The notes beneath the pieces were generated by a model that worked only from the letters and a program-made list of their open reading frames with translations, was not told the origin of the DNA and ran no database searches. This document shows positions 11,736-51,000 of a stretch of DNA of 64,000 nt, piece after piece. This stretch comes from a phage, in assembly GCA_011911785.1 (NCBI GenBank), contig GCA_011911785.1_4084.1. One strand, given 5' to 3'. Made by a program: the position numbers and the translations under genes. Position 1 is the stretch's first letter, and each line of letters starts with the position of its first letter.

Positions 11736-13849
<2,114 letters not shown>

Positions 13850-13877
13850 CTTAAACGACCATTAATGGAGTTATTAA

Positions 13878-14408
13878 ATGAACAAACTACAACAAATTCT
13901 AACAGAAAATAAACCTGTATATGAATATCGTGTCAAATTTGCATTTGAACCTAGTACTGAACAATTGAGTAAAGTTACCCAACGTCTAGTAGATCGCTAT
14001 GATGCTTTCGAAGTTGGTGCTCTGAAGAAAACTATTTTCATGGAAAAACCACTAGACTTTTATGAACTAGATTGTGGTGAAATCTGGATGTTTGATTTCA
14101 AATGCAATCGTGGTGTACAGTCTAATGTACTAATGTATGAAATTGGAAACCTTCTATCTGTTACTGAAGCACTTATTCGTGTTCGCGGTAAAGATGAACC
14201 ACGTCAGATTGAAATGTCCATCAGTGAAGATGACGTTGATTTTGACGAAATTCGTGTTATCGGGAAAGATTTCGGTGATGCAGTAGATAGTACTGGTATT
14301 TCTGGTCAAGAACGTGCTGATAAAGCAGTTGAAGACGCAAAAGAAGAGATTAAACGTGATAATAAATACTCTCAATATATGAGTGCTGGTTTTGGTAAAA
14401 AGGAATAA
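13878..14408 (+). CDS. Hypothetical protein (176 aa)
   Basis: ORF track. Confidence 0.5.
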   Translation: MNKLQQILTENKPVYEYRVKFAFEPSTEQLSKVTQRLVDRYDAFEVGALKKTIFMEKPLDFYELDCGEIWMFDFKCNRGVQSNVLMYEIGNLLSVTEALIRVRGKDEPRQIEMSISEDDVDFDEIRVIGKDFGDAVDSTGISGQERADKAVEDAKEEIKRDNKYSQYMSAGFGKKE

Positions 14409-14411
14409 ACG

Positions 14412-14960
14412 ATGAGTATACTTAATGAAATGTTTGAGTATGAGGACAATGAACTGAATGAAGCTCGTCCTTATAGTCGTTCTCAAAGTGCTATTGATAG
14501 TGCTAAAGGGAAAGTAAAAGGTATGTTCGGTAGTGGGCAGATTGAGCAAGGTGCACAGGAAGTTGGTGCAGAAGCTAACCGCCTATGGGCTGAATTTAAA
14601 CGATATATTGGTAAAAAATATGGCAAAGCACAAAGCTCTGTTCCATATGCTGATGTTGCACAATTCTTCAAAGGTAATCAATTGGATGTGAAATTCCTCG
14701 GTAATAATCAACGCCGTTCTTTTACACCAAAAGATGTTGGTAACGCTCTATTACAGGCTGCTCGTGAATACATGAACACATATCGTGATCAAGAAGAGCC
14801 AGCACCAGCTAAACCACAAAGTGAACCAGCAGCACCACAAGCTTCAAATGAACCACCACAACCAGCGGCGAATCCATCTACCCAATCACAAGGTATTGCT
14901 GGTATTCTACAAGGTCTAAGTCCTGCTGAACGTGAGCAACTACTTCGAATGATTTCGTAA
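14412..14960 (+). CDS. Hypothetical protein with Pro/Ala/Gln-rich C-terminus
   Basis: ORF track. Confidence 0.5.
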   Translation: MSILNEMFEYEDNELNEARPYSRSQSAIDSAKGKVKGMFGSGQIEQGAQEVGAEANRLWAEFKRYIGKKYGKAQSSVPYADVAQFFKGNQLDVKFLGNNQRRSFTPKDVGNALLQAAREYMNTYRDQEEPAPAKPQSEPAAPQASNEPPQPAANPSTQSQGIAGILQGLSPAEREQLLRMIS

Positions 14961-14972
14961 GGGGATAATACA

Positions 14973-16445
14973 ATGCTTAAATTATTCAGTACTGAAAGTA
15001 CGGTAGTTCCTAATGGGTATATCTATACTTCCCATACTGGAGCAAAATATGTCTTCTTAGAAGGTATGTGGTTCAATGATAGTAATATGATGATGGTTGA
15101 TCCACAAAAATATCCAAATATGTATGCTTGTGCTCGACAACAAATTGTTGAGCACAACAATAAATCAAACACTGCATTTAAAATTGGCGAAAACTATCTT
15201 CACAATGGAAAAGAGTGTACGTTCATCGGTGAAAGCCGCTTCCATAGTGATGACGGTACTATTCTTTCTGAAAGTGAAGTTATTACAGAACTAATGGGTG
15301 ATGAACAACGTGTATATCAAGTTTCCAAAGAAACTCTACAAAAAGAGTGGAGTACTTTGAAATTTTATATTCTACCCCCACATGCACAAGATATTTCTAT
15401 CCCAGCAGGTATGGTAGTTCAAGGATATAAGTTTATTCCTAACAGTCATCGCTTTGTTGAACTAAAAAGCGGTCGCCCTGTAAGCCCAGAAATGACACGT
15501 AAGCTAAGTGAAGAAGGTCTTCGCATTGCTCGCCAATTATCTACAAACAATAAGCTAATCCCATTGAAATCTGTATTGATTCAAGGTAATGTTCGTTCTG
15601 AATGGAACGGTAAAGAATTTTGCGATAATGACGGTAATGTGGTAGTATCTGAACAAGGCTCGAAAGCTATTTTCCAAGCATATTCACAGTTCGTTAAGGC
15701 AAATCCTGAAGATTTTCCTTCTTTAACTGGTGCTAGTACTGGTGAAGAACAACGTTTTGGTTCTGTACCGAAGCCAGAAAAAGTTACCGAAGCTGAAGAT
15801 GAACCAGCAGTTGGTGTACCAGATGGATACCGTTTTACTTCTGGTAAAAACAAAACTTATGCTAAACAACGTGGTGCTTGGTTTGATGTTGAAACTAAAA
15901 AACAACTAAATTCAGGTGCTGCACAAAGTATTGAGCGTGCTGCACAACAAGCTATTCTTAAACATAACGAATCCGGTGCAATGAAAATCGGAACAAAAGT
16001 TACTTCTAAGAAAGGCAAAGAATATGTATACGTTGGTGGTGATCGATTCATTGGTCCAGATGGTAAAATGATTCCAAAAAGTGCTGCACAAGCTATTCTG
16101 GATCGTTTTGAATCTTCTAAATCAGAGAATGAACCTAAACCAAATGACGCACCACAAGAAGAACCAAAAGCACAAGAAGAACCTAAACCTGAAGCACAGG
16201 CTGAACCGAAAGAAGAACCAAAGGAAGAGCCTAAACCAGAACCGACCCCTGAACCAGAAGTTGAGCAAGGGAATGGTATGGAAGCACTTGCATCACAAAT
16301 TAAATCTTCTCCTTATGCGAAAAAGATTACAGTACTGCTAACCCGTGGTGATAAGGTTTCTTTACTAGCCGCTGACATTCTATTAGCTGGTAATAAAGAT
16401 GAAGTAGTGCAGATTTTAAAATCATTAAATAATAATGATGAATAA
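14973..16445 (+). CDS. Hypothetical protein with internal ~35-aa repeats and a PE/PK-rich linker
   Basis: Repeated pattern G-x-K-E/Y...RF...DG in four places; linker EPKPNDAPQEEPKAQEEPKPEAQAEPKEEPKEEPKPEPTPEPE. Confidence 0.55.
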   Translation: MLKLFSTESTVVPNGYIYTSHTGAKYVFLEGMWFNDSNMMMVDPQKYPNMYACARQQIVEHNNKSNTAFKIGENYLHNGKECTFIGESRFHSDDGTILSESEVITELMGDEQRVYQVSKETLQKEWSTLKFYILPPHAQDISIPAGMVVQGYKFIPNSHRFVELKSGRPVSPEMTRKLSEEGLRIARQLSTNNKLIPLKSVLIQGNVRSEWNGKEFCDNDGNVVVSEQGSKAIFQAYSQFVKANPEDFPSLTGASTGEEQRFGSVPKPEKVTEAEDEPAVGVPDGYRFTSGKNKTYAKQRGAWFDVETKKQLNSGAAQSIERAAQQAILKHNESGAMKIGTKVTSKKGKEYVYVGGDRFIGPDGKMIPKSAAQAILDRFESSKSENEPKPNDAPQEEPKAQEEPKPEAQAEPKEEPKEEPKPEPTPEPEVEQGNGMEALASQIKSSPYAKKITVLLTRGDKVSLLAADILLAGNKDEVVQILKSLNNNDE

Positions 16446-16458
16446 CTAAAAGGATTTA

Positions 16459-17409
16459 TTGAAAATGGCAAAAAAAATTAATGAAGCACAGGTTAAAATT
16501 GATATTGCTGGTCTAGAATCTGATGATCTAGAAGCACTATCCCGTATGCTTGCACTAGCTGGTCAAGCTGAAAAGCAATCATCCGTAGCACCTACTGTTT
16601 CTCCAATCGCTCCACTTGACTTCGGTTCTTTTGGTGGTTCAGCGGAAGAACCAGAAGTTGTTGCTCCAGAAATGGGTGCTGATGTAGCACCTGTTCCAGA
16701 AATTGGTGAAGAAGACCCACTAGCACAAGCTGTTGATGATCTATCTGGTTCAGTAACTGATTTCGGTGCTGATGCAGAAGGTGAAGCTGACATTCCAGTT
16801 ATCGATGTTGAAGCTCCTGGTGAAGAAGATGAACTTTCTCTTGACATGAGTGGTCAACCTAAGCTAGAATCTACTCTATCAGATGAAGACGATGAAGTTA
16901 TTGAAGAAGAATTCGATTTCGGTCGTATGATGTCTCTAGCTGGTCTTCCTGTTACTGAAGCAGTAGATGAAGATGAAGAAGAAATTGAAGAAGAAGTTAC
17001 TGAATCTCAAATCCTTCCTGACCTAAGTCTAGAAGAAGAGAGTCCAGCACTTGACACAACTGATTTTGGTCCTTTCCGTTCTGAATACGATGCTGTTCAA
17101 GATGGTCAAGCTAAAACCAATGGTGTTGAAGGTGATAACTTCATCGTAGTTCCTAAAGGAAACCAATTCTACTGGAGACGTGTTGTTCAAGAAGAACTTG
17201 ACAATGTTCCAAATCCAGAAGAATATGATAATGAAGGTAATGTACATCGTGTACATGAATTCAAGCCAAAAGCACCTGGTACTGCTCTAGGTGATAACCC
17301 ACTTAATGTTTACGAAGCTGAAGAAGAAGAGTCTGAAGAAGACGAATCTGTAGAAGACATTTTTGAAAGTCTCCAAAGTAAGTACAATAAGTTTCTAGGA
17401 GATAAGTAA
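16459..17409 (+). CDS. Highly acidic protein (316 aa)
   Basis: Very high Asp/Glu content with runs such as EEEESEEDESVED. Confidence 0.55.
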   Translation: MKMAKKINEAQVKIDIAGLESDDLEALSRMLALAGQAEKQSSVAPTVSPIAPLDFGSFGGSAEEPEVVAPEMGADVAPVPEIGEEDPLAQAVDDLSGSVTDFGADAEGEADIPVIDVEAPGEEDELSLDMSGQPKLESTLSDEDDEVIEEEFDFGRMMSLAGLPVTEAVDEDEEEIEEEVTESQILPDLSLEEESPALDTTDFGPFRSEYDAVQDGQAKTNGVEGDNFIVVPKGNQFYWRRVVQEELDNVPNPEEYDNEGNVHRVHEFKPKAPGTALGDNPLNVYEAEEEESEEDESVEDIFESLQSKYNKFLGDK

Positions 17410-17410
17410 T

Positions 17411-17812
17411 ATGTCATACAACTATCGTGAACTAGTGGAATCACTAGATGCGATTATGGCAGAAGAAGAAGTTCCTCAAGAAGAAAATGGTATCGTTGTC
17501 CAAGAAGATTCGGACAACGTTATCGTTGATTTACTAAAGGAAATCACTACATCTTTAGTTGCTTTAGTTGATAAAGCAAAAGAAGAAGGTTCTGACCATA
17601 AAGAAATCGCAGAAAAACTTAAAAAAGCATGTGACATTTTGGCAGATGTGGAATATAATGATGACTTAGAAGCAAAAGACAGTACTAAAGAAATTGAAGA
17701 AGATTTCGGTACTGAAGATATGGCTCCTAAAGTTGACAGTGAAGGTCATCGTAGCTATAAAGTTAAAGATGCTCCTTCTTATGCTGCCAGACAAGGTTTT
17801 GTGGGGATGTAA
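17411..17812 (+). CDS. Acidic protein (133 aa)
   Basis: ORF track; start coupled to upstream stop. Confidence 0.5.
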   Translation: MSYNYRELVESLDAIMAEEEVPQEENGIVVQEDSDNVIVDLLKEITTSLVALVDKAKEEGSDHKEIAEKLKKACDILADVEYNDDLEAKDSTKEIEEDFGTEDMAPKVDSEGHRSYKVKDAPSYAARQGFVGM

Positions 17813-17814
17813 TT

Positions 17815-18159
17815 ATGATACCACAACCCACTAACAGCACTGAATTTCAAAATGAAGTACTTATAAAAGTTAAAGAAGTACATGAATCGGACGCTGAAAT
17901 CACTGACAGAATGCTTCTGATGTCTATTTTTGAAAACTTCAGAACTGGTGGTGGTTTGAGGCTTAGTAAGTATGGATTTATGATTTGTGAAGAAAATAAT
18001 CTTTATGAATTTACAAAAATCCCCTTGCTAAGAGAGTTCAAAAGCTCTATAATATTTACATCGCTTGATAGAATATGTAGAAGTCCTTATTATGTTGATG
18101 GCTACTACATATATCTCTCCGATGCAATGGTAGTTACTGAATTAACATTGTGTCGGTGA
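17815..18159 (+). CDS. Hypothetical protein (114 aa)
   Basis: ORF track. Confidence 0.5.
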   Translation: MIPQPTNSTEFQNEVLIKVKEVHESDAEITDRMLLMSIFENFRTGGGLRLSKYGFMICEENNLYEFTKIPLLREFKSSIIFTSLDRICRSPYYVDGYYIYLSDAMVVTELTLCR

Positions 18160-18223
18160 TGATTTCAAGCAGTTATTTTCGATGCATATGTAGAACGCTT
18201 CGAAAATAAAAATGAAAAAGATG

Positions 18224-18251
18224 TTGACAGTACAGATTAACGTGATATAAT
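18224..18251 (+). promoter_or_regulatory. Sigma70-like promoter P1 (TTGACA - 16 nt - TGaTATAAT)
   Basis: ttgaca 18224-18229, extended -10 tgatataat ending 18251. Confidence 0.6.
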
Positions 18252-18316
18252 GAACGTCACGAAGCAAGATTTCAAAATCACAAGATGTGAGATTGAAAAA
18301 GAAAGAAAAAAAGTTG

Positions 18317-18344
18317 TTGACAAGCCTGAACGATGTGATATAAT
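18317..18344 (+). promoter_or_regulatory. Sigma70-like promoter P2 (TTGACA - 16 nt - TGaTATAAT)
   Basis: ttgaca 18317-18322, tataat 18339-18344; near duplicate of P1 93 bp downstream. Confidence 0.6.
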
Positions 18345-18511
18345 GACCACATCAAGACGGCAAACAAGATTGACCTTTTTAAACACACGGATGATTCACT
18401 GAAGATAAGGAACTGATAAGTTAAAATACTTTTAACACAGTTCCTTTACTTTTGCCAACGGATTGGTTATAATATAAACCTAGTTTTTTATCCAACAAAA
18501 GGAAAATACAC

Positions 18512-19837
18512 ATGAGCGAACAACAAGATATCCTGAACGTAAAACTGACTCCTAAGAAAGCAAAAATGGCTATGGCTCTGGCAGATAAAATTCAGGATAG
18601 TCTGATGATTTGGGGTAGCCCTGGTATCGGTAAGTCTGCGATTGCACGTCAATACGCTGACGAGAACTATCCTCTTCGTAAGGATAACTTGGCTAAAATC
18701 GAGTTCATGAAACAACAAATTGAAGTTGATACTGAAAATGCTGATGCACTTCGCCGCGAACTGGCAGCGTTTGAAGCAAAACTGATTGACCAAGACACTA
18801 ACTTCATCGACTTCCGTTTGTCACAGATTGAACCAAGTGACCTACGTGGTATCCCAGTCCCTGAAAAAGTGTTCCTGGATATGGATGGCAAACAACTGAT
18901 TGAATCTGAACTGGAAACAGCTAAAGATTACATTGCTGAAACAGCAGTTGTATGGGCAGCACCTAAAGTACTGAAACTGTCTCCAGATTGGAAAGGTGTT
19001 ATCCTGTTTGACGAAATTAACTCTGCTATGCCGATTGTACAGGCAGCGTCTTATCAGCTAATCCTCGACCGTTGTGTTGGTGAGATGAAGCTACCTAAGA
19101 CTGCACTGATTCTCGCAGCAGGTAACCGTGAAACTGATGGCGGCGTAACGTTCTCTCTGGCAACGCCACTACGTGACCGTATGACCCACATCGAAATGGT
19201 TCCTTACCATCAAGATTGGATTGACGATTACGCGATTGCTAAGCGTTTGAACCCAGGTACTGTTGCGTTCATCAACAACACTGGTGCTAAGTACTTCAAC
19301 ACCCTTAGCCCACAAGATCCTTCTCACAGTGGTGGTACTTCTCCACGTTCATGGGAAGCAGTAGCACGCTACGAAGACCTGAAGAAAGGCAACAACATTG
19401 ATAAAGAAGTGTTCCGTGCTCTAATCGCTGGTCGTGTTGGTGAAGGTGTAGCAACTGAATATATCGAATACGTAGAAAACGTATCTAAACTACCAGATAC
19501 TATGTCCATCCTACAGGGTGAGATTAAAGAGATTGATGCAACGCTGGATATTTCTGCGAACTACTTCATCTCTCTGAATCTGGTTTATAAAATTATCGAC
19601 CTGTACAATGAGAAGCAAGAACAACGTCTTCCAGTTGAAGAGTGGGGCAAGCTGTGCAACAACTTCATCACCTTCCTGGACCGTAACTTCTCCGAAACTC
19701 AGGCAGAACTGGCAGTACTAGCAATTCGTACCATCACTCAACATAAGGTAGCGATTGCGTACAAAGATGTTCCAGCGTTCAAAGACTTCGTTATGAAGTA
19801 CTCTGACCTAGTACGCAAAGCACGTTCTCTTGGTTAA
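18512..19837 (+). CDS. MoxR-like AAA+ ATPase
   Basis: Walker A GSPGIGKS, Walker B ILFDEIN, single AAA module, 441 aa. Confidence 0.85.
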   Translation: MSEQQDILNVKLTPKKAKMAMALADKIQDSLMIWGSPGIGKSAIARQYADENYPLRKDNLAKIEFMKQQIEVDTENADALRRELAAFEAKLIDQDTNFIDFRLSQIEPSDLRGIPVPEKVFLDMDGKQLIESELETAKDYIAETAVVWAAPKVLKLSPDWKGVILFDEINSAMPIVQAASYQLILDRCVGEMKLPKTALILAAGNRETDGGVTFSLATPLRDRMTHIEMVPYHQDWIDDYAIAKRLNPGTVAFINNTGAKYFNTLSPQDPSHSGGTSPRSWEAVARYEDLKKGNNIDKEVFRALIAGRVGEGVATEYIEYVENVSKLPDTMSILQGEIKEIDATLDISANYFISLNLVYKIIDLYNEKQEQRLPVEEWGKLCNNFITFLDRNFSETQAELAVLAIRTITQHKVAIAYKDVPAFKDFVMKYSDLVRKARSLG

Positions 19838-19911
19838 TAACTAAAAGAATGTTTGACAAGAAGGATGCCACATGGTATCCTTCTTTTATCTTAACTAAAC
19901 GAGGAAATATC

Positions 19912-21315
19912 ATGTCCGATAAGAAATTTAGCGACGTAACACCACAACTCCAGAAAGAATGCCAAGACCGTTTGATTCTTGCTCGTACTTCTCTGATGTT
20001 AACTGCTCCATTCTTTGGTGTACTGGCTTCACGTCTGCGTCCAGTTGCAAACAATACATGGTGTCGTACCTTAGCAGTAGATGGTAAACATTTATTCTAT
20101 AACGTAGAATTTATCATGGGTATTCAAGACCCAAGCAAGAAAGAAGCATACGAAGAAGCAATTCGTGAGAAGCATCCTGAAGTAACTGAAGAACAATTGA
20201 AAGAAATGACCGAAGGTTTGACTGATGAAAACCTGATTGCAGTTATCTGTCATGAAATTCTTCACTGTGCATACGATCACTTCCTTCGTCGTGGTATGCG
20301 TGACCCACAACGCTACAACCGTGCAGCAGACTACGCAATCAACCAAATTATTGTTCGTGAAAAAATTGGTAAGATTCAAAGTCAATGGTTGTATGATAAG
20401 AAGTATGATGGTATGACCGCCGAAGAGATTTATATTCTTCTAGAAGAAGAAGATAAACAAGATCAAGATGAAGGTGAAGGACAACCACAATCTGGTAGTG
20501 GTGAAGGTGAAGGTAAATCACGCGGTACTTTTGGTGATATCCAAAATGGTAAAGGCAAAGGCACTACCATTGACCAACACGATGTACCACAAGATGGTGA
20601 AGGTGGTGCATCTGAAGCACAAAAACGTGAATACATGGACGATTTCAAAACAGCAATGATGAATGCTGCTCGTGCAGGTGGTACTCCTGCTGAAATCGCT
20701 CGTATGATCAATAACTTTAAAGAACCAAAAATTGACTGGCGTTCTAAACTTCAACGTACTCTTCGTAGCTGGTTGAAGTCCGATGCGACCTATCAAAGCC
20801 CAAGCCGCCGTTCGTGGGGTGCTGGTTTTGGTTCTAACGGTTCATTCTACGGGAATCCAATCTTCCCAGGTATGAAACCAGATGACGATATTGATATTGC
20901 AATTGCACTCGATGCATCAGGCTCTATCAGTGAAGATATGCTTCGTGATTTCATCAGTGAAGTACTAGGCATCACTAAACAATTCAAGCAGTTTAAAATT
21001 CGTATCATGACATTTGATACTGAAGTTTATACTGTGATGGATTATAAAACTGGTGAAGAACGTAAGATTCTTGAATATCCAGTTAAAGGTGGTGGCGGTA
21101 CTGACTTTGAAGCAGTTTGGGTTCACATGAAGCATGACAATTATAAGCCTAAACAGCTTATCATGTTTACCGATGGTGAACCGTGGCAGTCATGGGGTGA
21201 TCCTAACTACTGTAAAACACTGTTTGTGATTCACAGTAACCCGAACAAAGTAGCACCATTTGGTGAAACTGTTCACTACGAATATGAAGCGGACAAAAAA
21301 CGCCAACGTTCGTAA
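19912..21315 (+). CDS. VWA-domain protein with N-terminal HExxH (DUF2201-type putative metallopeptidase) domain
   Basis: HEILHCAYDH motif; MIDAS motif DASGSIS; ORF track 19849..21315, ATG 19912 after GAGGA. Confidence 0.8.
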   Translation: MSDKKFSDVTPQLQKECQDRLILARTSLMLTAPFFGVLASRLRPVANNTWCRTLAVDGKHLFYNVEFIMGIQDPSKKEAYEEAIREKHPEVTEEQLKEMTEGLTDENLIAVICHEILHCAYDHFLRRGMRDPQRYNRAADYAINQIIVREKIGKIQSQWLYDKKYDGMTAEEIYILLEEEDKQDQDEGEGQPQSGSGEGEGKSRGTFGDIQNGKGKGTTIDQHDVPQDGEGGASEAQKREYMDDFKTAMMNAARAGGTPAEIARMINNFKEPKIDWRSKLQRTLRSWLKSDATYQSPSRRSWGAGFGSNGSFYGNPIFPGMKPDDDIDIAIALDASGSISEDMLRDFISEVLGITKQFKQFKIRIMTFDTEVYTVMDYKTGEERKILEYPVKGGGGTDFEAVWVHMKHDNYKPKQLIMFTDGEPWQSWGDPNYCKTLFVIHSNPNKVAPFGETVHYEYEADKKRQRS

Positions 21316-21325
21316 AAATAAATAT

Positions 21326-21355
21326 AGAGAACGATTCGTCGTTCTCTTTTATTTT
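21326..21355 (+). terminator. Rho-independent terminator
   Basis: Perfect 9-bp stem agagaacga/tcgttctct, loop ttcg, followed by tttatttt. Confidence 0.75.
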
Positions 21356-21361
21356 ATAATT

Positions 21362-21389
21362 GGGACAACCCAATTAACTATGATATAAT
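21362..21389 (+). promoter_or_regulatory. Sigma70-like promoter (GGGACA - 16 nt - TGaTATAAT)
   Basis: gggaca 21362-21367, tataat 21384-21389; -35 lies inside palindrome aattgggacaacccaatt (21358-21375). Confidence 0.5.
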
Positions 21390-21422
21390 GGAAATTGTAA
21401 TAACATACATGGAGAGTAATAT

Positions 21423-21665
21423 ATGAGTACTGAAAACAATGCACAAGACGAAGTAATCCTAGACCTAGTTGACCTAATCAACGCTGCTCGTATTATGGAA
21501 TCTGCGGTTGCACGTAATGCGTTTCAAGTTGATGAACTAGTGAACGTAGCACCAATTGTTTCCAAGTTCGTTAAATTTGCTGATAAAGCACTTGCTGATA
21601 TCAAAGAACGTGAAGAAGCTGCTGCTCAAGCACAAGATACCGCTGGTACAGAAGGGGAAGAATAA
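21423..21665 (+). CDS. Hypothetical protein (80 aa)
   Basis: ORF track; GGAGAG SD. Confidence 0.5.
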   Translation: MSTENNAQDEVILDLVDLINAARIMESAVARNAFQVDELVNVAPIVSKFVKFADKALADIKEREEAAAQAQDTAGTEGEE

Positions 21666-22321
21666 TGGCTGCTATTCGTCACACAGGTGTAATTCGTAAT
21701 ACTGGTTCTCGTGTTTTCGTTGTTTGGCGTTCACTTCCAGATGATCATGATCATTGTCTAGTTGTGTATCGTGACTCACTTCCAGAAGCATATGTATCTG
21801 CTGTAACCGATTTAGTTATGGGTCGTGGACAAGCTTCTGTTGAACTTTGGGAAGTTATGCATCAAGTAGGTTATCTCGATGGTCGTAAAATGCTAGATGT
21901 TCTTCACAATCTACAATATCTACGTAAAGTCCGTACTTGTGATATTGACATGCACACTGGCGGTAACAACAAGATTTCACTTGATGTACTGAATGATGCA
22001 ATCGACGGTAATGAAAGTAAAAAACATGAAGATGGTAAAGTAAAAGATTACAACCCATTCAATCCACAAGTTCAAGATACAAAAGTCGAAGATGAAACTA
22101 TTGTTGATGAACTACTAAAAACTGCTGCAAAATATGATCAACTAGCTAAAGAGCATTATGAGCGTGCTTATAACCTAGAACCTTCTCTTCGTCCCAACGA
22201 AACGATTGTGAAAACTGATTCTGATAAGAAAGTTTTTTACATTGAACTTCCAGAAGGTATTTCTCAAACCAAAGCAATTGAGAAACTAAAACTTGTTTTT
22301 GCAGAGCGTAAGAATGGCTAA
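21665..22321 (+). CDS. Hypothetical protein (218 aa)
   Basis: ORF track. Confidence 0.5.
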   Translation: MAAIRHTGVIRNTGSRVFVVWRSLPDDHDHCLVVYRDSLPEAYVSAVTDLVMGRGQASVELWEVMHQVGYLDGRKMLDVLHNLQYLRKVRTCDIDMHTGGNNKISLDVLNDAIDGNESKKHEDGKVKDYNPFNPQVQDTKVEDETIVDELLKTAAKYDQLAKEHYERAYNLEPSLRPNETIVKTDSDKKVFYIELPEGISQTKAIEKLKLVFAERKNG

Positions 22322-45067: not shown

Positions 45068-48000
45068 TTATTGAATATTCAATAGATTTTCGATATCAGT
45101 TCCAGTAATTGACAATCCATTTCTGAATGTATCTAATGGAATTGGTGGATAGAAGTTTTGATATTGAGTAAACTTATCAATGCTCCCCAAGTTCAATCCA
45201 TTAAAGCTATAAGACGTTCCTTTAGTAAAATTATGTTCCGCACTATACATGACACCACGTAATAGACGGTCAGTGTTTCTTACCTGAACCTTCTCATATC
45301 CAACCACAATAATATCATCATTCTGTGCCGCAGCACCTGACAGTACTGAATCAGTAATGATATATGGGCTTATTGAACGAGGTTTAGCAACATAAGTGAT
45401 TGCCTCATCTTCAACGGTTGTAATGTTAATTACACTACATCCTACTTCTTTGATGAACGTGTTATTGACCACAGGTTGTGCATACTGCCACACGCGATCA
45501 TAACTTAGTACTGGTTGAATAACATCAACATCGTATTCAAATACAGTGATTTCAATACCATCAGTCATTTTAGCTCGTACTAGTTCACCCAGGACACCTT
45601 TACCAGAGATTGGCTGATTGTAACCATTATCAATTGTAATACCATCAACTTCAAAAATCTCATTGGAAACTAACCACAAATCAATTTCATCAGGTGTGAT
45701 ACCATCATTGAATTTACCACCATATAATGTTTCGTCATAGAATACTTCATAGTTCAATGCATGTATACTGTAATGACGATTATTTTCATATAGTTTAAGT
45801 CCATTGTCATCAAACTCAGGGTCTTGGAAAGTGCGGATTCTAACTAAGTTCATTGATAATGTATAAAAACGCTCATTACTTTCACGCTTAGTTATACTAT
45901 CAAACATTAACACTACACCATTACTATCAACCAACTCTACGTTACCATTACCCAATACACGTACTGTGTATAGTTTTGGTTTTTTAGAGGATTGGATTTT
46001 ACTAGCACTTAATATAGTTACCCAGTTACCGTCTTGGAATCGTACATAATCTTCACCATCTGGCGTGAAAATCATAACCTTATCACCATCTTTCAAACCT
46101 TCATCGTGAACTTTGATTTCAGTAATTGTTTTAATTTCTGAAATTGGGAAGAAGTATTTTTCAGATTCTTTGAACACATCTTTACCCATATTCTCAATGA
46201 CAATATCATATGATGGAATACTTACAACTGCTTCTGACATATTGTAAGGGTTTTGTACGATCATACCCTCAATCTGGAATCTACTTGTGTCTTTTAATTG
46301 CTCTTGAGCAACTTCATCGAAACCGTAACCATCAACAGTGAAACGTAATTGTGCCATTGTTCTTCCTGATGGGTTTAGTTCAGAAATGTCGATGATATAA
46401 GGATCAATCTCACTATCTTTAACTTCCCATTTAATGGATTTGGTTTGTGATTCCAATGCCAAGTTATCGAATGCATTCATATCATTGAAATATTTTGCAG
46501 TATTGATACTTTCCAGTACTTCAACATATGCAGAATACATTGGATTATTCTGGTCTTGTGGTAAATCATTTAAATCAATTTCAGCCAATACAACTGATTC
46601 TCCGGTTGTTATGAATAAGTCTTCCATGAAATCAGATATGCTGTAACTTTCAGGAATCGGTAGATATTCACCTGCCGCATTCACAACATACACATATTTC
46701 CTTGGCATCATAACAAAAGCATACTTATCAACTGCACGATTACTTAAGATTTCTCTAGCAACATAATAATGATCTAGAATATTCTTATTAAATGTTTGTC
46801 GCATTGCAGATAACACATGAACGGTATCAGAATAATAACGGTCATTTAATGTGGTATCATACTTGTAGCAATAAACACCATATTCTATCTCTAGTATATT
46901 ACGAACTTGGTCTTCATTAGTAAACTCAGGGTGATTTTTCTTGATCATATCGACATATTTTTCATATAGTTCAATACTAATCTCAAAATAACCATAGTTG
47001 TAATCACTACTTGCACTGAACCCAAAAGGTAGGCGAGTATTAGGATTATCATTATAGTTCGTACCCTTAAATGGACAACCAATCTCATTAGAAACCATGT
47101 CATCAGATATATTCTTAAACATTTTCACACGAGTTGCTAATGTATTGTATTGAATATATTTCTTAACGTCTTCTAAAATGTTACTGTTGTTTGTATCAGT
47201 AGTTACCTGCTCCAAATCAGCAGTAAATTGGTCAGTCATTGCAATATCAGTTGAATGGGCTTTATACCATGCATCAATTCCTTTAATGACACCATTACTA
47301 ATATCCAAATCTGAATATTTGGTAGTCATTTCAATACCAATCTGTGAAATTAAGGTATTATTATCATATTCAGGGAATGTATAAACATATCTCTGTAATT
47401 CATAATCATTTCCTATATCCGAAGCATTAGATTGATACTTACTATTGGTTGATTTCAACTCATCAATTGTATAATTACTATCATACGGGTCACATTGAAT
47501 ATTATCATAATGCATAATAACGTCGATTTCTTGGAATCGTCTGTTAGGTGTGATAAAGTCACTTGGTAGTGAACCAATCTTTTCCCAACGTTGGGTTACG
47601 TCATTAAATTGTGCATATTCTAAATCCCAAATGTCTTTTTCAGTCTTAACCCACACACCATCAACTAAAATATAGCCATCTGGGTCAAGGTCATTACTGA
47701 TACCATTAATCAAATCATCATCAGAAGTTTTCTGTTCTATTTGAGAACGGATTTTGGTTCTGTATGGTTTAACTTCTTCGAAGTACTCAACAATTTGATT
47801 AATCAAGTTGTCATTTGAGTAGTTTTGTACGAGAGATTGTTCTAAACCTACAATATAGATATATGAGGTTTTGAATACCCAGTCAACAACACTTTGTTCA
47901 GTGTGTACGTACTTAACCATATCAAAAACAATATTACTTTGATATAAGTTGAATGAATTTTTCAACAACGCTAACGCATTACGAACGTTAACCTCATGAG

Positions 48001-51000
48001 AATTCAAAGAACCATCATCATTGTAAACATTGTACCCAGAATATAACATTGAATTCAATTCAACTGTACTATTCTCACGTCCAATAGCTTTCCAGTATAT
48101 ATTATTACGAGATGCAGTCTTGATGTATAATGTCCAAACACCATCACTATCAGTTACACGGATAATATCACCAATTTGGTAATTTTTAGTGTTTGCGTCA
48201 TCTAAACTAACTTCTTGTGTATATTCAGTGTTGCTATCGTATCCAGTATCGTACCAATCAGCCAGATTCCAGTACTGGGTCATATCCAAAGATGTACCAA
48301 GTGATTCTATGAAGTCAGCTTGTTTAATCATCTTGTGTTGACCTTCACCTCTATTTTCTAGAGTGATTGTAACAGTACTTCCAACTGTACTTGGACTGTT
48401 CATCAATTGAATGTATCCATTTGGATCAATGTGAACAAAATATACTGAACTAGAAGATAATGGTGCTGGCAGAGTTCCGATGGAACTTACAAATACTGCA
48501 TCATTCTCTTTAAAGCGGTTATCTTCTGGTGCAATTACCAATTCATTGTTAAATGATAGAACACGGAATGTAATATCATTTGGGTTCATTTTTAATGTTT
48601 TCACATTAAACACATCATTCATAACAACACTGTTAGTTGTGATGTTCTGTGAACGGTAAAAGTTATTTGCACTCTCAACAAACGCACGACGAGCTTCAAT
48701 GACATTCTGGAACCAAGTTTTATTAGAACCTAAACCAGTTTCAACTTTAGGATAAATTATTTCATTTACAACACCAGTTGAAGTAGTTTCTTGACCAATT
48801 AGTGAGTTCCATAGTGAATTCCAAATATCTGGGTTAAAGTCATAACTATCACCTTCTTTACAGAGTTGATATTGATCATGCTTCAGTACTTCGATATTGT
48901 CATTTCTATATGAAATTGTCAAAATGCTTGTATCATCATTAACTTCAAATTGCATATTACTTAGAATGAAACTATTTTCATTAATAGGTGCAAACCAAGG
49001 AACATTCAATTGTGTTGGATCTTGAATAATACGTGCAATATCAGTACAAGACTTACTACGAGTAGTCATTGGTGGAACATAAATGGTATTACGAACCCAG
49101 AAATAATAACGAACTACATATGTATCAGTGATTGGATCATATTCCATAGATGAACTGTAGTTCTCATCCATTGCAATCCCACTTGGGAGATACATAGTAT
49201 TGTTTTTATTTTTATTGGCTTGTTCTGCACAATATTTTTCCCAGTTGTATGGTTCTACTGGTGAACTAACCCATTCTAGAACATCAATAACACTGTGTGG
49301 TAATAATTTACCCCAATTATAACGCTTATATTCATTAGTTGCTTTTACATCAACGTTACCATCCTCATCAAAGATTGGACGGGTATAATCCAGATAGAAT
49401 GCAGTGCTAGTGTTCCACCACACTTTACCTACCTTTTCAGCACCCCATGCTTGTAATAGTTCACCGTTACTGCTATACTGTGCTGGGTCCACTGGAGAGA
49501 TGAAATCAACATCTTGCATTGCAACCCCAGGAATAACACCGTTAATTGGGTCAAACACATTCAAATACAATGCAGTAATGTTTGTTCTTTCATCATACGT
49601 AGTAGGACGGTCAAACAAAGTGCTTTCAGGTGCACTGTAACTATATTTTTTAGCAATATATTCATCGCGTTCTTGTTGAGTACTAAATCTACTAACATAA
49701 CGATACAAACGTGGTGCTGATTCTACTGTTGAAAAGTCAATAGTAATGGAAGTGTCAAATGGCACTACCATAACTTTTGGATCTAGTCCAGAAGTGTAGT
49801 ATTGGCATTCATCACGTAGGGCATCAGGCATAAAGTTTGTTTCATCAACAAAATAATAATAATCACCATCATTGAGTGGGATATCATCAGACAATAGTAC
49901 TTTACAATATTGCTCAGCATATGGATCTTCACTTTCAATTGGTGTAATAGAAACCATTGTAATACCAGTATCTACTAAATCATACACATTCCATTCGTTA
50001 TTGATATCTTGGAACATCCAAACAGATGTTGGGATTTTACCAGAATTATTCATATAACTAATGCGGTCTTGATTTGCAGTTTCGTAATTTAATGTGGTAT
50101 AATCAATTTCATCTAGGGTTACTGGTCCAATATTAGGTAATTGGATATTCTCACTTCTCCCATTACGCATAGGGAATGAGAATTTACCTTTTGGACGACT
50201 AATCCAGCGTGAATCTTCACCAATTTCACCATAATATACAATTTCATTCTCAGATTCAACCTTATCGGAATAACGGTCAAACGTAATCATTTGTGGTTGT
50301 TGTTTAAACTCATTATTAATTAGTTTAAATTGAAGATTTTTAACACCATCAATGTTACCATAAGAACCAACACGGAATGCCCATTCTTGTAATGCTTTAT
50401 ACTCATCAGTATTATATGATTTAGATACACGTAATACTTTTTCTAGTACTTGGTTAGTGCCTTTATCATGAATAAAACCTTTATAGAAATCAATTCGACC
50501 AGGCTCATTAGTGATCATACGTTGTAAGTAATCACGAGACTGATAGCCAATTAAGTGGTTTGAAAGTTCATTTAATTGAACATCACTAACTGGGGTTTCA
50601 TTATCATAATACTGTTGGAAATTAGACACCAAAGTTTCAAATGATGGTAATGTACCAGCTTCTAGGATGATAAATCCAGGAGCTTGTAAACGTCCAGACC
50701 ATGAACCAGTGATATATCCATACAATTTAATCAATTCTTGAACTGCACCATAGGTTGGTTCATAGATATAATCACCGAAAATCGTCTGATCATCAAAAAT
50801 AACAGCATGTTCATAAGAACTGATACTTAAACGAATAAGTGCCATGCGTTTATTTGATTCTTCAGTTGTTCTTACCGTGAATATGTTACCAATACGAGAT
50901 GTTTCAATCTCAAATTGACGTATACCCTGGTTTGAATCATCTAACAATGACCAAACACCACCACTATTTTGTGCAATTGACTGTACTGAACCAAAATCTG

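What the first reader, a model, noticed from the sequence alone, without database searches (positions are those of the whole stretch)
16459..17812. Two consecutive strongly acidic proteins (possible DNA mimics or internal proteins)
The 316-aa and 133-aa proteins are dominated by Asp/Glu with long acidic runs and few basic residues. Highly acidic phage proteins include DNA-mimic anti-restriction proteins (Ocr/ArdA-like) and prohead core/internal proteins. Their position between tail genes and the MoxR cassette, not next to head genes, leaves the role open.
Basis: inference. Interest (0 to 1): 0.5.

Follow-up and report, generated by a model that had tools for sequence, protein, structure and literature searches.

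The report
Acidic packaged head proteins, jumbo phage
Two very acidic, mostly disordered proteins of a 355-kb E. coli jumbo phage are already known virion components, and they most likely enter the capsid through a short T4-style leader that the head protease removes, rather than acting as Ocr/ArdA-type DNA mimics.

Summary
The window is Escherichia phage A4, a Rak2-like jumbo myovirus (99.8% identity). ORFs 16465-17409 (A, 314 aa; the real start is the ATG, not TTG 16459) and 17411-17812 (B, 133 aa) are the two most acidic of 46 long ORFs: D+E 27% and 26%, z = 4.7 and 4.4, net charge -66 and -20. Acidity is conserved in all 93 A and 36 B homologues, while the sequences diverge fast.

Homologues were found in purified virions of RaK2, CBB and phAPEC6 by mass spectrometry. 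AlphaFold models show disordered polyanions with short conserved helices and one 40-residue mini-domain. There is no Ocr or ArdA match by sequence or fold.

Both proteins start with a conserved leader ending in (L/I)-x-E (MAKKINE|A, MSYNYRELVE|S). That is the cleavage motif of the T4 gp21-type (Peptidase_S77) prohead protease, which this phage encodes, and the register of the T4 internal-protein targeting sequence MKTYQEFIAE|A. The motif occurs in 5/5 head-module proteins, 5/6 proteins of the A/B cluster and 3/53 others (none of the tail proteins).

Best reading: T4-type prohead-core or internal head proteins. Cleavage and location inside the head are inferred, not shown. This is a new member of a known kind, of modest interest.

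The parts
16465..17409 (+). Protein A (314 aa; A4_557; PHROG 15988): polyanionic, mostly disordered virion protein
   Evidence: ORF listing. The A4 annotation calls it 'structural protein'. PHROG 15988 matches at E = 6e-109. pI is 3.47 and net charge -66. AF2 mean pLDDT is 61, with 114 residues below 50. Virion MS of homologues: RaK2 gp050, CBB_213, phAPEC6 gp267c.
16465..16485 (+). A residues 1-7, MAKKINE|A: putative capsid-targeting/propeptide leader ending in an I-x-E prohead-protease site
   Evidence: [LIVM]xE followed by Ala is conserved in 92/93 homologues. The same motif is present in RaK2, CBB, XbC2 and PBECO4. T4 precedents are gp24 MAKINELLRE|S and IPII/III MKTYQEFIAE|A. Cleavage itself is inferred.
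16486..16575 (+). A residues 8-37: conserved N-terminal module AQVKIDIAGLESDDLEALSRMLALAGQAEK (helix 19-37, first 'RM..LAG' motif)
   Evidence: The columns are invariant or nearly invariant. The helix has pLDDT 73-83. About 30 distant proteins share only this module. By coverage arithmetic, the single peptide detected in RaK2 and phAPEC6 virions is residues 12-27.
16576..16911 (+). A residues 38-149: hypervariable acidic disordered region with a conserved island AVDDL.G.VTDFG (about residues 85-101)
   Evidence: pLDDT is mostly below 50. The region is rich in indels and poorly conserved. Residues 38-191 hold 48 D/E against 2 K/R. The homologues have a K/R-free stretch of 105-117 aa, which makes it invisible to tryptic MS.
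16912..16944 (+). A residues 150-160: second 'FDFGRMMSLAG' motif (short helix)
   Evidence: F150, R154, M155, L158, A159 and G160 are conserved in at least 90% of homologues. AF2 predicts a helix at 152-158. In the whole window the motif occurs only in A, twice. It recurs in distant relatives.
16996..17037 (+). A residues 178-191: conserved VTE|S ... LPDLSL(E/D)E| block, two candidate internal protease sites at the end of the acidic region
   Evidence: V178-x-E180 is conserved in 90/93 and L189-x-E191 in 92/93 homologues. P185, D186 and L187 are invariant.
17056..17184 (+). A residues 198-240: small beta-alpha-beta-beta domain (GPFRSE.EAV.D...TNG...F.V.P...G.YW.R), the only confidently folded part
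   Evidence: pLDDT is 93-96. The module occurs 1-3 times in different homologues. Foldseek found no significant PDB match; the best E-value was 2.1.
17350..17394 (+). A residues 296-310: C-terminal helix VEDIFE|SLQSKYNKF with an invariant I-x-E-S
   Evidence: I299-x-E301 is conserved in 93/93 homologues, with Ser following in 92. AF2 predicts a helix at 296-310. At motif level it resembles T4 gp22 SIFE|S and A4_6 DIFE|S.
17411..17812 (+). Protein B (133 aa; A4_558; PHROG 14971): acidic three-helix virion protein with a conserved neutral C-terminal tail
   Evidence: ORF listing. PHROG 14971 matches at E = 4e-37. pI is 3.98 and net charge -20. AF2 mean pLDDT is 68.7, with helices at 5-18, 36-57 and 63-79. 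Virion MS of homologues: RaK2 gp051 (2 peptides) and CBB_214 (1 peptide).
17411..17440 (+). B residues 1-10, MSYNYRELVE|S: putative targeting leader in the same register as the T4 IP CTS (hydrophobic 8, x, Glu 10)
   Evidence: E10 is invariant in 36/36 homologues and [LIVM]xE is aligned in 29/36. RaK2, CBB and XbC2 have LME|A or LME|S. T4 IPII/III read MKTYQEFIAE|A.
17708..17809 (+). B residues 100-133: conserved uncharged C-terminal tail G(T/A)..M.P..D..G...Y.....SY....GFVG
   Evidence: G100, P106, Y116, S123, G129, F130 and G132 are invariant. Net charge is 0. pLDDT is 72-74.
13289..16445 (+). Upstream co-oriented cluster A4_553-556 (186, 176, 182 and 490 aa). Three of the four share the N-terminal (L/I)-x-E leader, and three of the four are virion proteins by MS of homologues.
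   Evidence: The leaders are IDE|A, LTE|N and LNE|M. MS evidence: CBB_210 with 13 peptides and 60% coverage, RaK2 gp047-049, phAPEC6 gp268c and gp270c. Intergenic gaps are 3-28 bases, and no terminator-like site lies on the + strand between 10902 and 19858.

Best explanation
A and B are late-expressed virion proteins of a Rak2-like jumbo myovirus, and most likely belong to the T4-type class of prohead-core/internal head proteins.

Proposed mechanism, with each step marked as shown or inferred:
1. They are transcribed and translated together with the tail-tube, gp4-like and neighbouring structural genes. Inferred from tight spacing, translational coupling and the absence of terminator-like sites.
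2. A short N-terminal leader (A: MAKKINE|A; B: MSYNYRELVE|S) acts like the T4 capsid-targeting sequence and takes each protein into the scaffolding core of the prohead. Inferred.
3. The phage's Peptidase_S77 (gp21-type) prohead protease cuts after the (L/I)-x-E of the leader. In A it may also cut at the conserved sites E180, E191 and E301, which bracket the acidic region and the C-terminal helix. The protease family and the conserved motifs are shown; cleavage is inferred.
4. The processed proteins, or parts of them, stay in the DNA-filled head at modest copy number. Virion association is shown for homologues in three phages; a head location is inferred.
5. Inside the head they are disordered polyanions that cannot bind DNA. 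The conserved short helices (the two RM..LAG motifs and the C-terminal helix of A, and the C-terminal tail of B) would be docking motifs for core, portal or shell partners. The acidic linkers would act as space-filling, DNA-repelling spacers, like T4 gp67 and the acidic core peptides. They may contribute to the axial inner body seen in phAPEC6 and may leave with the DNA at infection. This step is speculative.
For: Identity and virion association:
- The window is phage A4 at 99.8% identity, and both genes are annotated 'structural protein'.
- A homologues in virion MS: RaK2 gp050 (1 peptide, 5.3%), CBB_213 (5 peptides, 18.9%), phAPEC6 gp267c (1 peptide, 4.9%).
- B homologues in virion MS: RaK2 gp051 (2 peptides, 18.7%), CBB_214 (1 peptide, 15.4%).
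- Low coverage is expected, because 105-117 central residues lack K/R.
- Bona fide core proteins of phAPEC6 show similar low coverage: scaffold 4.9%, protease 15%, gp228c 16.7%.

Protease and head module:
- A4_8 is Peptidase_S77 (E = 2.5e-21) and the major capsid protein is of the Gp23 family.
- The head module has T4 gene order.

N-terminal motif:
- (L/I)-x-E within 13 residues of the N-terminus occurs in 5/5 head-module proteins, 5/6 proteins of A4_553-558 and 3/53 other proteins. None of the tail, baseplate or fibre proteins has it. Fisher p = 6e-5 for the cluster.
- It is conserved in 92/93 A homologues. In B, E10 is conserved in 36/36.
- T4 shows the same pattern: gp67, gp68, gp21, gp22, gp24, Alt, Inh, IPII and IPIII have it, against 3/19 tail/neck proteins.
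- The literature gives gp21 specificity as L/I-X-E and describes 10-20-residue CTS leaders (PMC9026906; PMC5694885; PMC3012670).

Precedents for acidity and gene position:
- T4 gp67 is 44% D+E, and A4_7 (in the gp68 position) is 27.5% D+E.
- T4 ipI lies in the block dNMP kinase-gp3-gp2-gp4, not in the head module.

Structure and unresolved inner body:
- A and B are predicted to be disordered polyanions with short conserved motifs.
- phAPEC6 has an inner body whose proteins are unidentified.
Against: - No direct evidence places A or B in the head rather than the neck or tail. MS was done on whole virions.
- No semi-tryptic peptide or N-terminal sequence shows cleavage.
- Two of the three peptide combinations that reproduce the CBB_213 coverage figure include residues 4-11, which span the proposed E7|A8 site. 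If real, that would mean incomplete or no cleavage.
- There is no detectable homology to T4 gp22, the A4 scaffold, A4_7 or phiKZ inner-body proteins (hhalign probability below 1%). The weak PF12699 hits in some B homologues are below threshold.
- The genes lie in a tail-proximal operon. In a distant lineage (L019) an A-like gene lies between sheath-completion and baseplate genes.
- T4 internal proteins are basic, not acidic.
- (L/I)-x-E is a short motif that is likelier by chance in Glu-rich proteins, and the gene cluster used for the Fisher test was delimited after seeing the data.
- One cluster member, A4_556, lacks the motif yet is a virion protein.
Confidence: 0.55

Rival explanations
1. 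A and B are neck- or tail-associated components, or tail/neck assembly factors that co-purify with virions. Examples would be an acidic chaperone or spacer for the tube, tape measure or head-tail joining. On this view the N-terminal (L/I)-x-E is a coincidence of Glu-rich composition.
For: The genes follow the sheath, three tube paralogues and the gp4-like head-completion gene in one apparent operon. In L019 an A-like gene lies between a sheath-completion gene and a baseplate-wedge gene. Whole-virion MS cannot tell head from tail. Many tail assembly chaperones are acidic (general knowledge).
Against: None of about 25 tail, baseplate or fibre proteins of this phage has the N-terminal motif, while all five head-module proteins do. 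The motif is conserved in 92/93 A homologues with an invariant Ala after it, which composition alone does not explain. T4 also encodes internal proteins away from its head module, next to genes 1-3-2-4. Assembly chaperones are normally absent from virions, yet these proteins were detected in three phages.
Confidence: 0.2
2. A and B are packaged effectors. Their polyanionic chains are ejected with or ahead of the DNA and act as nucleic-acid decoys or inhibitors of host DNA-targeting defences. This is the functional logic of T4 IPI* or P1 Dar, using electrostatic DNA mimicry like Ocr. It is a functional extension of the best explanation, not an alternative location.
For: The proteins are virion-associated. 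A's charge density of -0.21 per residue is conserved across 93 homologues although sequence and length vary. A, B and the neighbouring 490-aa protein are the fastest-diverging genes of the block, at 50-63% identity to PBECO4 against 80-95% for neighbours, as expected for host-interaction proteins. In T4, internal proteins are a diverse set of anti-restriction factors that share only the CTS (PMC3012670).
Against: Fast divergence is equally expected from relaxed constraint on disordered linkers. Those linkers carry slippage-prone GAA-rich repeats. No similarity to any known anti-defence protein or DNA mimic was found. No ejection or anti-restriction data exist for this clade. The short motifs that are conserved look like assembly or docking motifs rather than enzyme-binding surfaces.
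Confidence: 0.15
3. A and B are classical Ocr/ArdA-type DNA-mimic anti-restriction proteins: folded, made early in the cytoplasm, and not structural.
For: Only the composition supports this: very low pI and high negative charge density, comparable to known DNA mimics.
Against: No Pfam hit to Ocr or ArdA appeared in the window proteins or in any of 93 + 36 family members, even at E <= 1. The AF2 models are mostly disordered (pTM 0.27 and 0.31) and have no PDB fold match. The acidic stretches vary in length and sequence, which does not fit a rigid phosphate-mimicking surface. The genes are in a structural operon, and the consensus sigma-70 promoters lie only downstream, in front of the MoxR gene. 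The proteins are found in virions.
Confidence: 0.03

Closest known systems
T4 prohead-core and internal head proteins (gp67, gp68, gp22; IPI-III, Alt): substrates of the gp21 (Peptidase_S77) prohead protease that carry N-terminal capsid-targeting/propeptide leaders
   Same: The phage has an S77 protease, a Gp23-family capsid protein and T4 head-gene order. A and B have a 7-10-residue leader ending in (L/I)-x-E followed by Ala or Ser, and B's is in the same register as MKTYQEFIAE|A. They are present in virions. Extreme acidity has a T4 precedent in gp67, at 44% D+E. The genes lie outside the head module, near the dNMP-kinase/gp4 block, as T4 ipI does.
   Different: There is no detectable sequence homology to any T4 core or internal protein tested. 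T4 IPs are small, basic, folded proteins, whereas A and B are polyanionic and largely disordered. A is much longer than gp67 and has a modular build: two RM..LAG motifs, a mini-domain repeated 1-3 times, and a C-terminal helix. Cleavage and head location have not been demonstrated.
phiKZ / SPN3US inner-body and ejection proteins (Pfam PF12699 phiKZ_IP and relatives)
   Same: These are jumbo-phage virion proteins processed by a gp21-related protease after Glu, packed inside the head with the DNA. A relative of this phage, phAPEC6, also has an inner body (PMC9026906).
   Different: PF12699 hits occur in only 5 closely related B homologues, at 12-20 bits against a cut-off of 27. The window's B has no hit. 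hhalign against phiKZ gp92-96 gives about 0.1% probability. phiKZ uses S/A-x-E sites and long propeptides, whereas these proteins have short T4-like L/I-x-E leaders.
Ocr (T7 gp0.3) and ArdA DNA-mimic anti-restriction proteins
   Same: Very low pI and a high density of surface carboxylates.
   Different: There is no sequence or fold similarity. A and B are disordered rather than rigid dimers, their acidic segments vary in length, and they are late, structural and virion-associated rather than early and cytoplasmic.
A4_7 / phAPEC6 gp228c (gene in the T4 gp68 position of the same phage's head module)
   Same: Equally acidic (pI about 4, D+E 27.5%), starts MANLKLLQE|A, has a long acidic low-complexity centre, and was detected in phAPEC6 virions.
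   Different: No homology to A (hhalign probability 0.1%). It has a basic C-terminal third and is encoded inside the head module.

Membership tests
T4-type CTS-bearing prohead core/internal proteins (gp21 substrates) | The phage encodes a gp21-family (Peptidase_S77) prohead protease and a T4-like head module | tested here: met
   A4_8 matches PF03420 at E = 2.5e-21. The major capsid protein matches PF07068 (Gp23) at E = 5e-90. Gene order is portal, small protein, acidic protein, protease, scaffold, MCP.
T4-type CTS-bearing prohead core/internal proteins (gp21 substrates) | A short (about 10-20 residue) N-terminal leader ending in L/I-x-E | tested here: met
   A has I5-N-E7|A, conserved in 92/93 homologues. 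B has L8-V-E10|S, with E10 conserved in 36/36. The motif is enriched in the head module and this cluster against other genes (p = 6e-5). The T4 comparator shows the same pattern.
T4-type CTS-bearing prohead core/internal proteins (gp21 substrates) | Protein present in purified virions | tested here: met
   Published MS of homologues in RaK2, CBB and phAPEC6. There are no data for phage A4 itself.
T4-type CTS-bearing prohead core/internal proteins (gp21 substrates) | Actual cleavage by the prohead protease at the leader | not testable with these tools
   No peptide-level MS data are available. Coverage arithmetic for CBB_213 is ambiguous: 2 of 3 solutions include peptide 4-11, which spans the site.
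T4-type CTS-bearing prohead core/internal proteins (gp21 substrates) | Location inside the capsid (core or DNA-embedded) rather than in the tail or neck | not testable with these tools
   All proteomes were of whole virions. No cryo-EM assignment exists for this clade.
T4-type CTS-bearing prohead core/internal proteins (gp21 substrates) | Sequence homology to a T4 core or internal protein | tested here: not met
   hhalign of the A and B profiles against T4 gp22 and the A4 scaffold gave probabilities below 1%. The class is functionally defined and sequence-diverse in T-even phages (PMC3012670).
Ocr / ArdA DNA-mimic anti-restriction proteins | Membership of the Ocr or ArdA sequence families | tested here: not met
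   No such Pfam hit at E <= 0.1 for A or B, or at E <= 1 for any of 93 + 36 homologues.
Ocr / ArdA DNA-mimic anti-restriction proteins | Compact folded structure presenting a rigid, DNA-like array of carboxylates | tested here: not met
   For A, AF2 gives pTM 0.27 with 220 of 314 residues at pLDDT below 70. For B, pTM is 0.31. Foldseek against PDB gave no hit at E <= 0.001 for A and none at all for B. The acidic segments are indel-rich.
Ocr / ArdA DNA-mimic anti-restriction proteins | Inhibition of type I restriction-modification enzymes | not testable with these tools
   This needs an experiment.
phiKZ-like internal head proteins (PF12699) | Significant match to the family profile or to its members | tested here: not met
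   Hits are below threshold (12-20 bits, cut-off 27) and occur in only 5 closely related B homologues. hhalign against phiKZ gp92-96 gives 0.1% probability.
Phage scaffolding protein (T4 gp22-like) | Long helical/coiled-coil protein encoded beside the protease and MCP, with homology to gp22 | tested here: not met
   A dedicated scaffold, A4_9 (372 aa), sits in the head module. A and B are not homologous to it or to T4 gp22. A is predicted to be disordered, not coiled-coil.

The most novel reading that the evidence does not exclude
A and B, with their cluster neighbours, are the so far unidentified building blocks or lining of the axial inner body of Rak2-like jumbo phages. They would also be ejected as disordered polyanionic 'DNA-like' chains that precede the genome into the cell and titrate DNA-binding host defences. 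That would be a packaged, intrinsically disordered form of DNA mimicry, distinct from the rigid Ocr/ArdA solution. The RM..LAG helices would serve as a portable docking motif, which would explain why that module recurs in otherwise unrelated proteins of distant large phages.
Probability: 0.12. Interest if true: 0.7.

Novelty: new member of a known kind. Interest (0 to 1): 0.3.

Why it matters
Rak2-like phages (Asteriusvirus, Alcyoneusvirus, Mimasvirus, Eneladusvirus) are common jumbo phages of enterobacteria and are being considered for therapy. Roughly half of their 55-60 virion proteins have no assigned place or role, and the proteins of their inner body are unknown.

A simple N-terminal (L/I)-x-E leader appears to separate head-core/internal proteins from tail proteins in this clade. 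That gives a cheap, testable rule for sorting the 'virion structural protein' annotations. It nominates a specific six-gene cluster (window 13289-17812) as packaged internal proteins. It also points to leader peptides that could be used, as in T4, to load foreign proteins into a very large capsid.

Beyond that, the finding is ordinary. The proteins were already known virion components, and the proposed class is well established in T4.

Tried and rejected
1. Ocr/ArdA-type DNA mimic. Rejected on Pfam scans of all family members, AF2 disorder, no Foldseek hit, the structural operon and virion MS.
2. phiKZ inner-body family. A weak PF12699 signal (best E = 3.6e-4) in five B homologues was followed up. 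All five are one PBECO4-type subclade, all score below the gathering cut-off, and hhalign against phiKZ gp92-96 was negative.
3. Homology of A to the equally acidic head-module protein A4_7, of A to B, and of A or B to T4 gp22 or the A4 scaffold. All negative. The apparent 'AQ.KID' resemblance to T4 gp22 after its first cleavage site was not supported.
4. PDB sequence search with the A profile. The only hit was a chance one, to a plant transcription factor at E = 0.68.
5. A weak STAS_2 hit to A's N-terminal helix in 27/93 members (best E = 0.0012, far below the cut-off). Treated as noise.
6. PADLOC gave nothing.
7. Genomic context of distant relatives. Single-sequence scans of IMG/VR found nothing. 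The alignment-based scan mostly returned Rak2-like genomes again. The one different locus (L019) placed the gene among tail genes, so context did not settle head versus tail.
8. The phiKp24 cryo-EM paper has no proteomics, and its capsid protein appears different, so it was no help.
9. No structural atlas of a Rak2-like virion was found in the library.
10. Biopython's pI of 4.05 is that routine's lower bound. pI was recomputed as 3.47 for A and 3.98 for B.
Full report
**Identity of the window.** The region 14000-22000 is 99.8% identical to Escherichia phage A4 (ON286972, 355,528 bp, genus Asteriusvirus). It is about 80% identical to the PBECO4/121Q/phAPEC6/G17 group of Rak2-like jumbo myoviruses. 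In A4 the two ORFs are A4_557 and A4_558, both annotated 'structural protein'. In the PBECO4 RefSeq record they are 'virion structural protein'.

**Observation.** Both ORFs exist as described.
- A is 314 aa from ATG 16465.
- A has 85 D/E against 19 K/R, net charge -66, pI 3.47.
- B (17411-17812, 133 aa) has 35 D/E against 15 K/R, net charge -20, pI 3.98.
- They rank 1 and 2 among 46 ORFs of 100 aa or more in the window, with z = 4.7 and 4.4 for D+E.
- The longest pure D/E run is only six residues. The acidity is diffuse and is concentrated in A residues 38-191, which hold 48 D/E and 2 K/R.
- Acidity is conserved in all 93 A homologues (net -47 to -87) and all 36 B homologues (net -16 to -33). 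The sequences themselves diverge fast: A and B are 59% and 50% identical to PBECO4, while the tube, MoxR and VWA proteins are 84-95% identical.
- The acidic linkers contain imperfect GAA-rich tandem repeats, consistent with slippage-driven length variation.

**What is already known.** PHROGs places A and B in families 15988 and 14971, both labelled 'virion structural protein'. Pfam has nothing. The label rests on mass spectrometry of purified virions.
- CBB: CBB_213 (5 peptides, 18.9%) and CBB_214 (1 peptide, 15.4%) (PMC5259590).
- phAPEC6: gp267c (1 peptide, 4.9%); gp266c was not detected (PMC7247149).
- The low coverage has a simple cause. The homologues have a central stretch of 105-117 residues without Lys or Arg, so trypsin yields no usable peptide there.
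- In RaK2 gp050 and phAPEC6 gp267c, the only tryptic peptide whose length matches the reported coverage is residues 12-27. This implies that the conserved N-terminal module is present in virions (an inference from arithmetic).
- The neighbouring genes are also virion proteins in one or more of these phages: orthologues of window 13878-14408, 14412-14960 and 14973-16445.

**Anatomy of A.** I aligned 93 homologues from a 5.8-billion-protein search. AlphaFold2 gave mean pLDDT 61 and pTM 0.27. A is a mosaic of these parts:
- an invariant N-terminus MAKKINEA;
- a conserved helix carrying LSRMLALAGQAE (residues 19-37);
- a hypervariable acidic disordered region with one conserved island (AVDDL.G.VTDFG);
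- a second FD(F/M).RM.SLAG motif (150-160);
- a conserved LLPDLSL(D/E)E block;
- one confidently folded beta-alpha-beta-beta mini-domain (198-240, pLDDT 93-96), present in one to three copies in different homologues;
- a conserved PGTALGDNPL segment;
- a C-terminal helix containing an invariant I-x-E-S.

The RM..LAG motif occurs nowhere else in the six-frame translation of the window. Foldseek against PDB found nothing significant.

**Anatomy of B.** B has a conserved N-terminus (M.YNYRELVE(S/A)LD.I) and three helices (5-18, 36-57, 63-79). It also has two acidic disordered linkers and a conserved, uncharged C-terminal tail ending SY....GFVG. Foldseek returned no hit at all. A and B are not homologous to each other.

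**Distant relatives.** An exhaustive profile search of 1.84 billion representatives found only 81 relatives. About 30 distant ones share only the N-terminal module and the second L(A/S)G motif, joined to different C-terminal domains. Where the module is internal, it is still preceded by M..K(L/I)NEA.

**The key lead: a T4-type leader.** The A4 head module lies about 60 kb downstream and has T4 gene order: portal, A4_6, A4_7, protease, scaffold, MCP.
- The protease is Peptidase_S77, the T4 gp21 family (E = 2.5e-21). The MCP is of the Gp23 family.
- T4 gp21 cuts after L/I-X-E. T4 core proteins (gp21, gp22, gp67, gp68) and internal proteins (Alt, IPI-III) are built into the prohead core. The internal proteins get there through a short N-terminal capsid-targeting sequence, which is then cleaved off (PMC9026906; PMC3012670; PMC5694885).
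- All five A4 head-module proteins begin with a leader ending in (L/I)-x-E: MLKDIFE|S, MANLKLLQE|A, MSMIRE|W, MSKLEKLLKE|S, MSQLLNE|S.
- So do A (MAKKINE|A), B (MSYNYRELVE|S) and three of the four proteins encoded just upstream (IDE|A, LTE|N, LNE|M).
- Among the other 53 annotated A4 proteins examined (140-224 kb), only three have such a motif in the first 13 residues. None of the sheath, tube, baseplate, fibre or other tail proteins does. Fisher p = 6e-5 for the cluster and 1e-5 for the head module.
- The motif is conserved in 92/93 A homologues, always followed by Ala. In B, E10 is invariant. It is present in RaK2, CBB, XbC2 and PBECO4.

**T4 comparator.** The real T4 genome shows the same dichotomy. 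These proteins have the motif: gp67 LIE|A, gp68 IPE|T, gp21 LIE|T, gp22 IAE|A, gp24 MAKINELLRE|S, Alt ITE|L, Inh IAE|L, and IPII/IPIII MKTYQEFIAE|A. Only 3 of 19 tail/neck proteins have it. B's L8-x-E10 is in exactly the register of the T4 IP targeting sequence.

**Further candidate sites in A.** A also has conserved (L/I/V)-x-E sites at E180 (90/93), E191 (92/93), E243 (93/93) and E301 (93/93). The first two close the acidic region and the last lies in the C-terminal helix.

**Precedents for acidity and gene position.** T4 gp67 is 44% D+E. A4_7, in the gp68 position, is 27.5% D+E with pI about 4, and its phAPEC6 orthologue gp228c is in virions. The scaffold and protease are also detected there at similarly low coverage. 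T4 encodes its internal proteins away from the head module. ipI lies in the block ipI-57B-57A-1 (dNMP kinase)-3-2-4. That resembles the arrangement here: dNMP kinase, sheath, tube genes, gp4-like gene, then the cluster.

**Transcription context.** The intergenic gaps from 12830 to 18159 are 0-28 bases, and no terminator-like hairpin lies on the + strand between 10902 and 19858. The 350-base gap before the MoxR gene contains two perfect 12/12 sigma-70 promoters with extended -10 TG (18224-18251 and 18317-18344). A and B therefore belong to the upstream structural unit, not to the MoxR/VWA cassette. These are consensus scans, not evidence of function.

**Interpretation.** The best-supported reading is that A and B are packaged head proteins of the T4 core/internal class. 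They would be targeted by a short leader, trimmed by the S77 protease, and retained in the capsid as disordered polyanions. Their short conserved helices would dock on core, portal or shell partners.
- Shown: the composition and its conservation, the domain and motif architecture, the protease family, the statistical association of the leader with head proteins in this phage and in T4, and virion association of the homologues.
- Inferred: targeting, cleavage, head location and any role inside the head.
- Speculative: a contribution to the phAPEC6 inner body, which is 91 x 18 nm with unknown composition, and ejection into the host.

**Caveats.**
- The proteomes were of whole virions.
- No cleavage has been observed.
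- Two of the three peptide sets that reproduce the CBB_213 coverage include residues 4-11, which span the proposed site.
- (L/I)-x-E is short and is favoured by Glu-rich composition.
- The cluster was delimited after seeing the pattern.
- There is no homology to T4 gp22, the A4 scaffold, A4_7 or phiKZ gp92-96.
- T4 IPs are basic, not acidic.
- In a distant lineage an A-like gene lies among tail genes.

**The DNA-mimic idea.** As an Ocr/ArdA-type protein it fails every test that could be run:
- no family match in 129 sequences;
- no rigid fold;
- no structural neighbour;
- acidic segments of variable length;
- a structural, virion-associated context.

A packaged, ejected polyanionic decoy remains possible but has no positive evidence beyond composition and fast divergence.

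**Verdict.** This is a real, non-random feature whose virion association is already in the literature. The new element is the argument that these proteins, and their cluster, are T4-type leader-bearing head-core/internal proteins. They are a new member of a known kind, of modest interest.

Noticed in passing
window 18224-18251 and 18317-18344 (+ strand): Two perfect 12/12 sigma-70 consensus promoters (TTGACA, 16 nt, TATAAT, each with an extended -10 TG) lie 93 bases apart in the 350-base gap upstream of the MoxR-type ATPase gene. This suggests the MoxR/VWA cassette is a separate unit transcribed by host RNA polymerase, probably early. Yet the phAPEC6 orthologue of the ATPase was detected in virions with 6 peptides.
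   Followed up: partly
window 14973-16445 (+), 490-aa protein A4_556: This upstream virion protein contains three internal repeats of about 90 residues (NGY.YTS..G..Y ... IG ... G). After the repeats come a Pro/Glu/Lys-rich low-complexity linker, which explains the spurious Pfam PARP hit and the 18/24-nt tandem repeats at 16153-16245, and then a small C-terminal domain. It is as fast-evolving as A and B: 63% identity to PBECO4, and the RaK2 orthologue is only 315 aa. It lacks the N-terminal (L/I)-x-E leader.
   Followed up: partly
L010 398-1240 (phage A4 212397-213239, outside the window): A4_7, in the T4 gp68 position of the head module, is a third strongly acidic protein (280 aa, D+E 27.5%). 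It has an MANLKLLQE|A leader and a basic C-terminal third. It is not homologous to A. Its phAPEC6 orthologue gp228c is in virions.
   Followed up: partly
P0176, P0178, P0184, P0194, P0199, P0181, P0202; L019 9650-11044: In distant large-phage proteins, A's N-terminal module (K(L/I)NEA...LSQ(M/I)LSLAGQAE) is internal, after an extra domain of 115-470 residues. It is still immediately preceded by Met plus 2-5 residues, as if a gene start had been fused. One protein, P0202, carries the module twice. These could be gene fusions, mis-called starts, or protease-separable polyproteins.
   Followed up: partly
window 13289-13849 (+), A4_553: This 186-aa protein has a conserved leader, MKPKQQIDE|ALGLP ((I/V)-x-E|A in PBECO4, RaK2, CBB and XbC2). 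It has never been reported in virion proteomes, so it may be a core protein that is fully removed, or it may simply have been missed.
   Followed up: no
window 19849-21315 versus A4 annotation (start at window 19912): The VWA/DUF2201 metallopeptidase-like gene can start at 19849 (488 aa) or at the annotated 19912 (467 aa). A 12-bp-stem terminator-like hairpin (19858-19885) sits between the MoxR stop and the annotated start. RefSeq propagates an 'HNH endonuclease' label for this family, which the Pfam domains (DUF2201_N plus a VWA-like domain) do not support.
   Followed up: no
window 14412-14960 (+), A4_555: The 182-aa virion protein is labelled 'Hsp70 heat shock protein' in PHROGs and RefSeq, but it has no Hsp70 domain in Pfam. 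The label looks like annotation drift. The protein has a Pro/Gln/Ala-rich disordered C-terminal half.
   Followed up: no
window 12830-13285 (+), A4_552: The gp4-like 'head completion' protein matches the TnsA-like endonuclease N-terminal domain (PF08722, E = 5e-16), which suggests a nuclease-fold origin for this neck or head-closure protein.
   Followed up: no
window 45068-55075 (-): A single ORF of 3,335 aa (A4_580, 'structural protein') is the phAPEC6 gp245 orthologue (382 kDa, 17 peptides in virions). It is a giant virion protein of unknown role next to the baseplate wedge gene.
   Followed up: no
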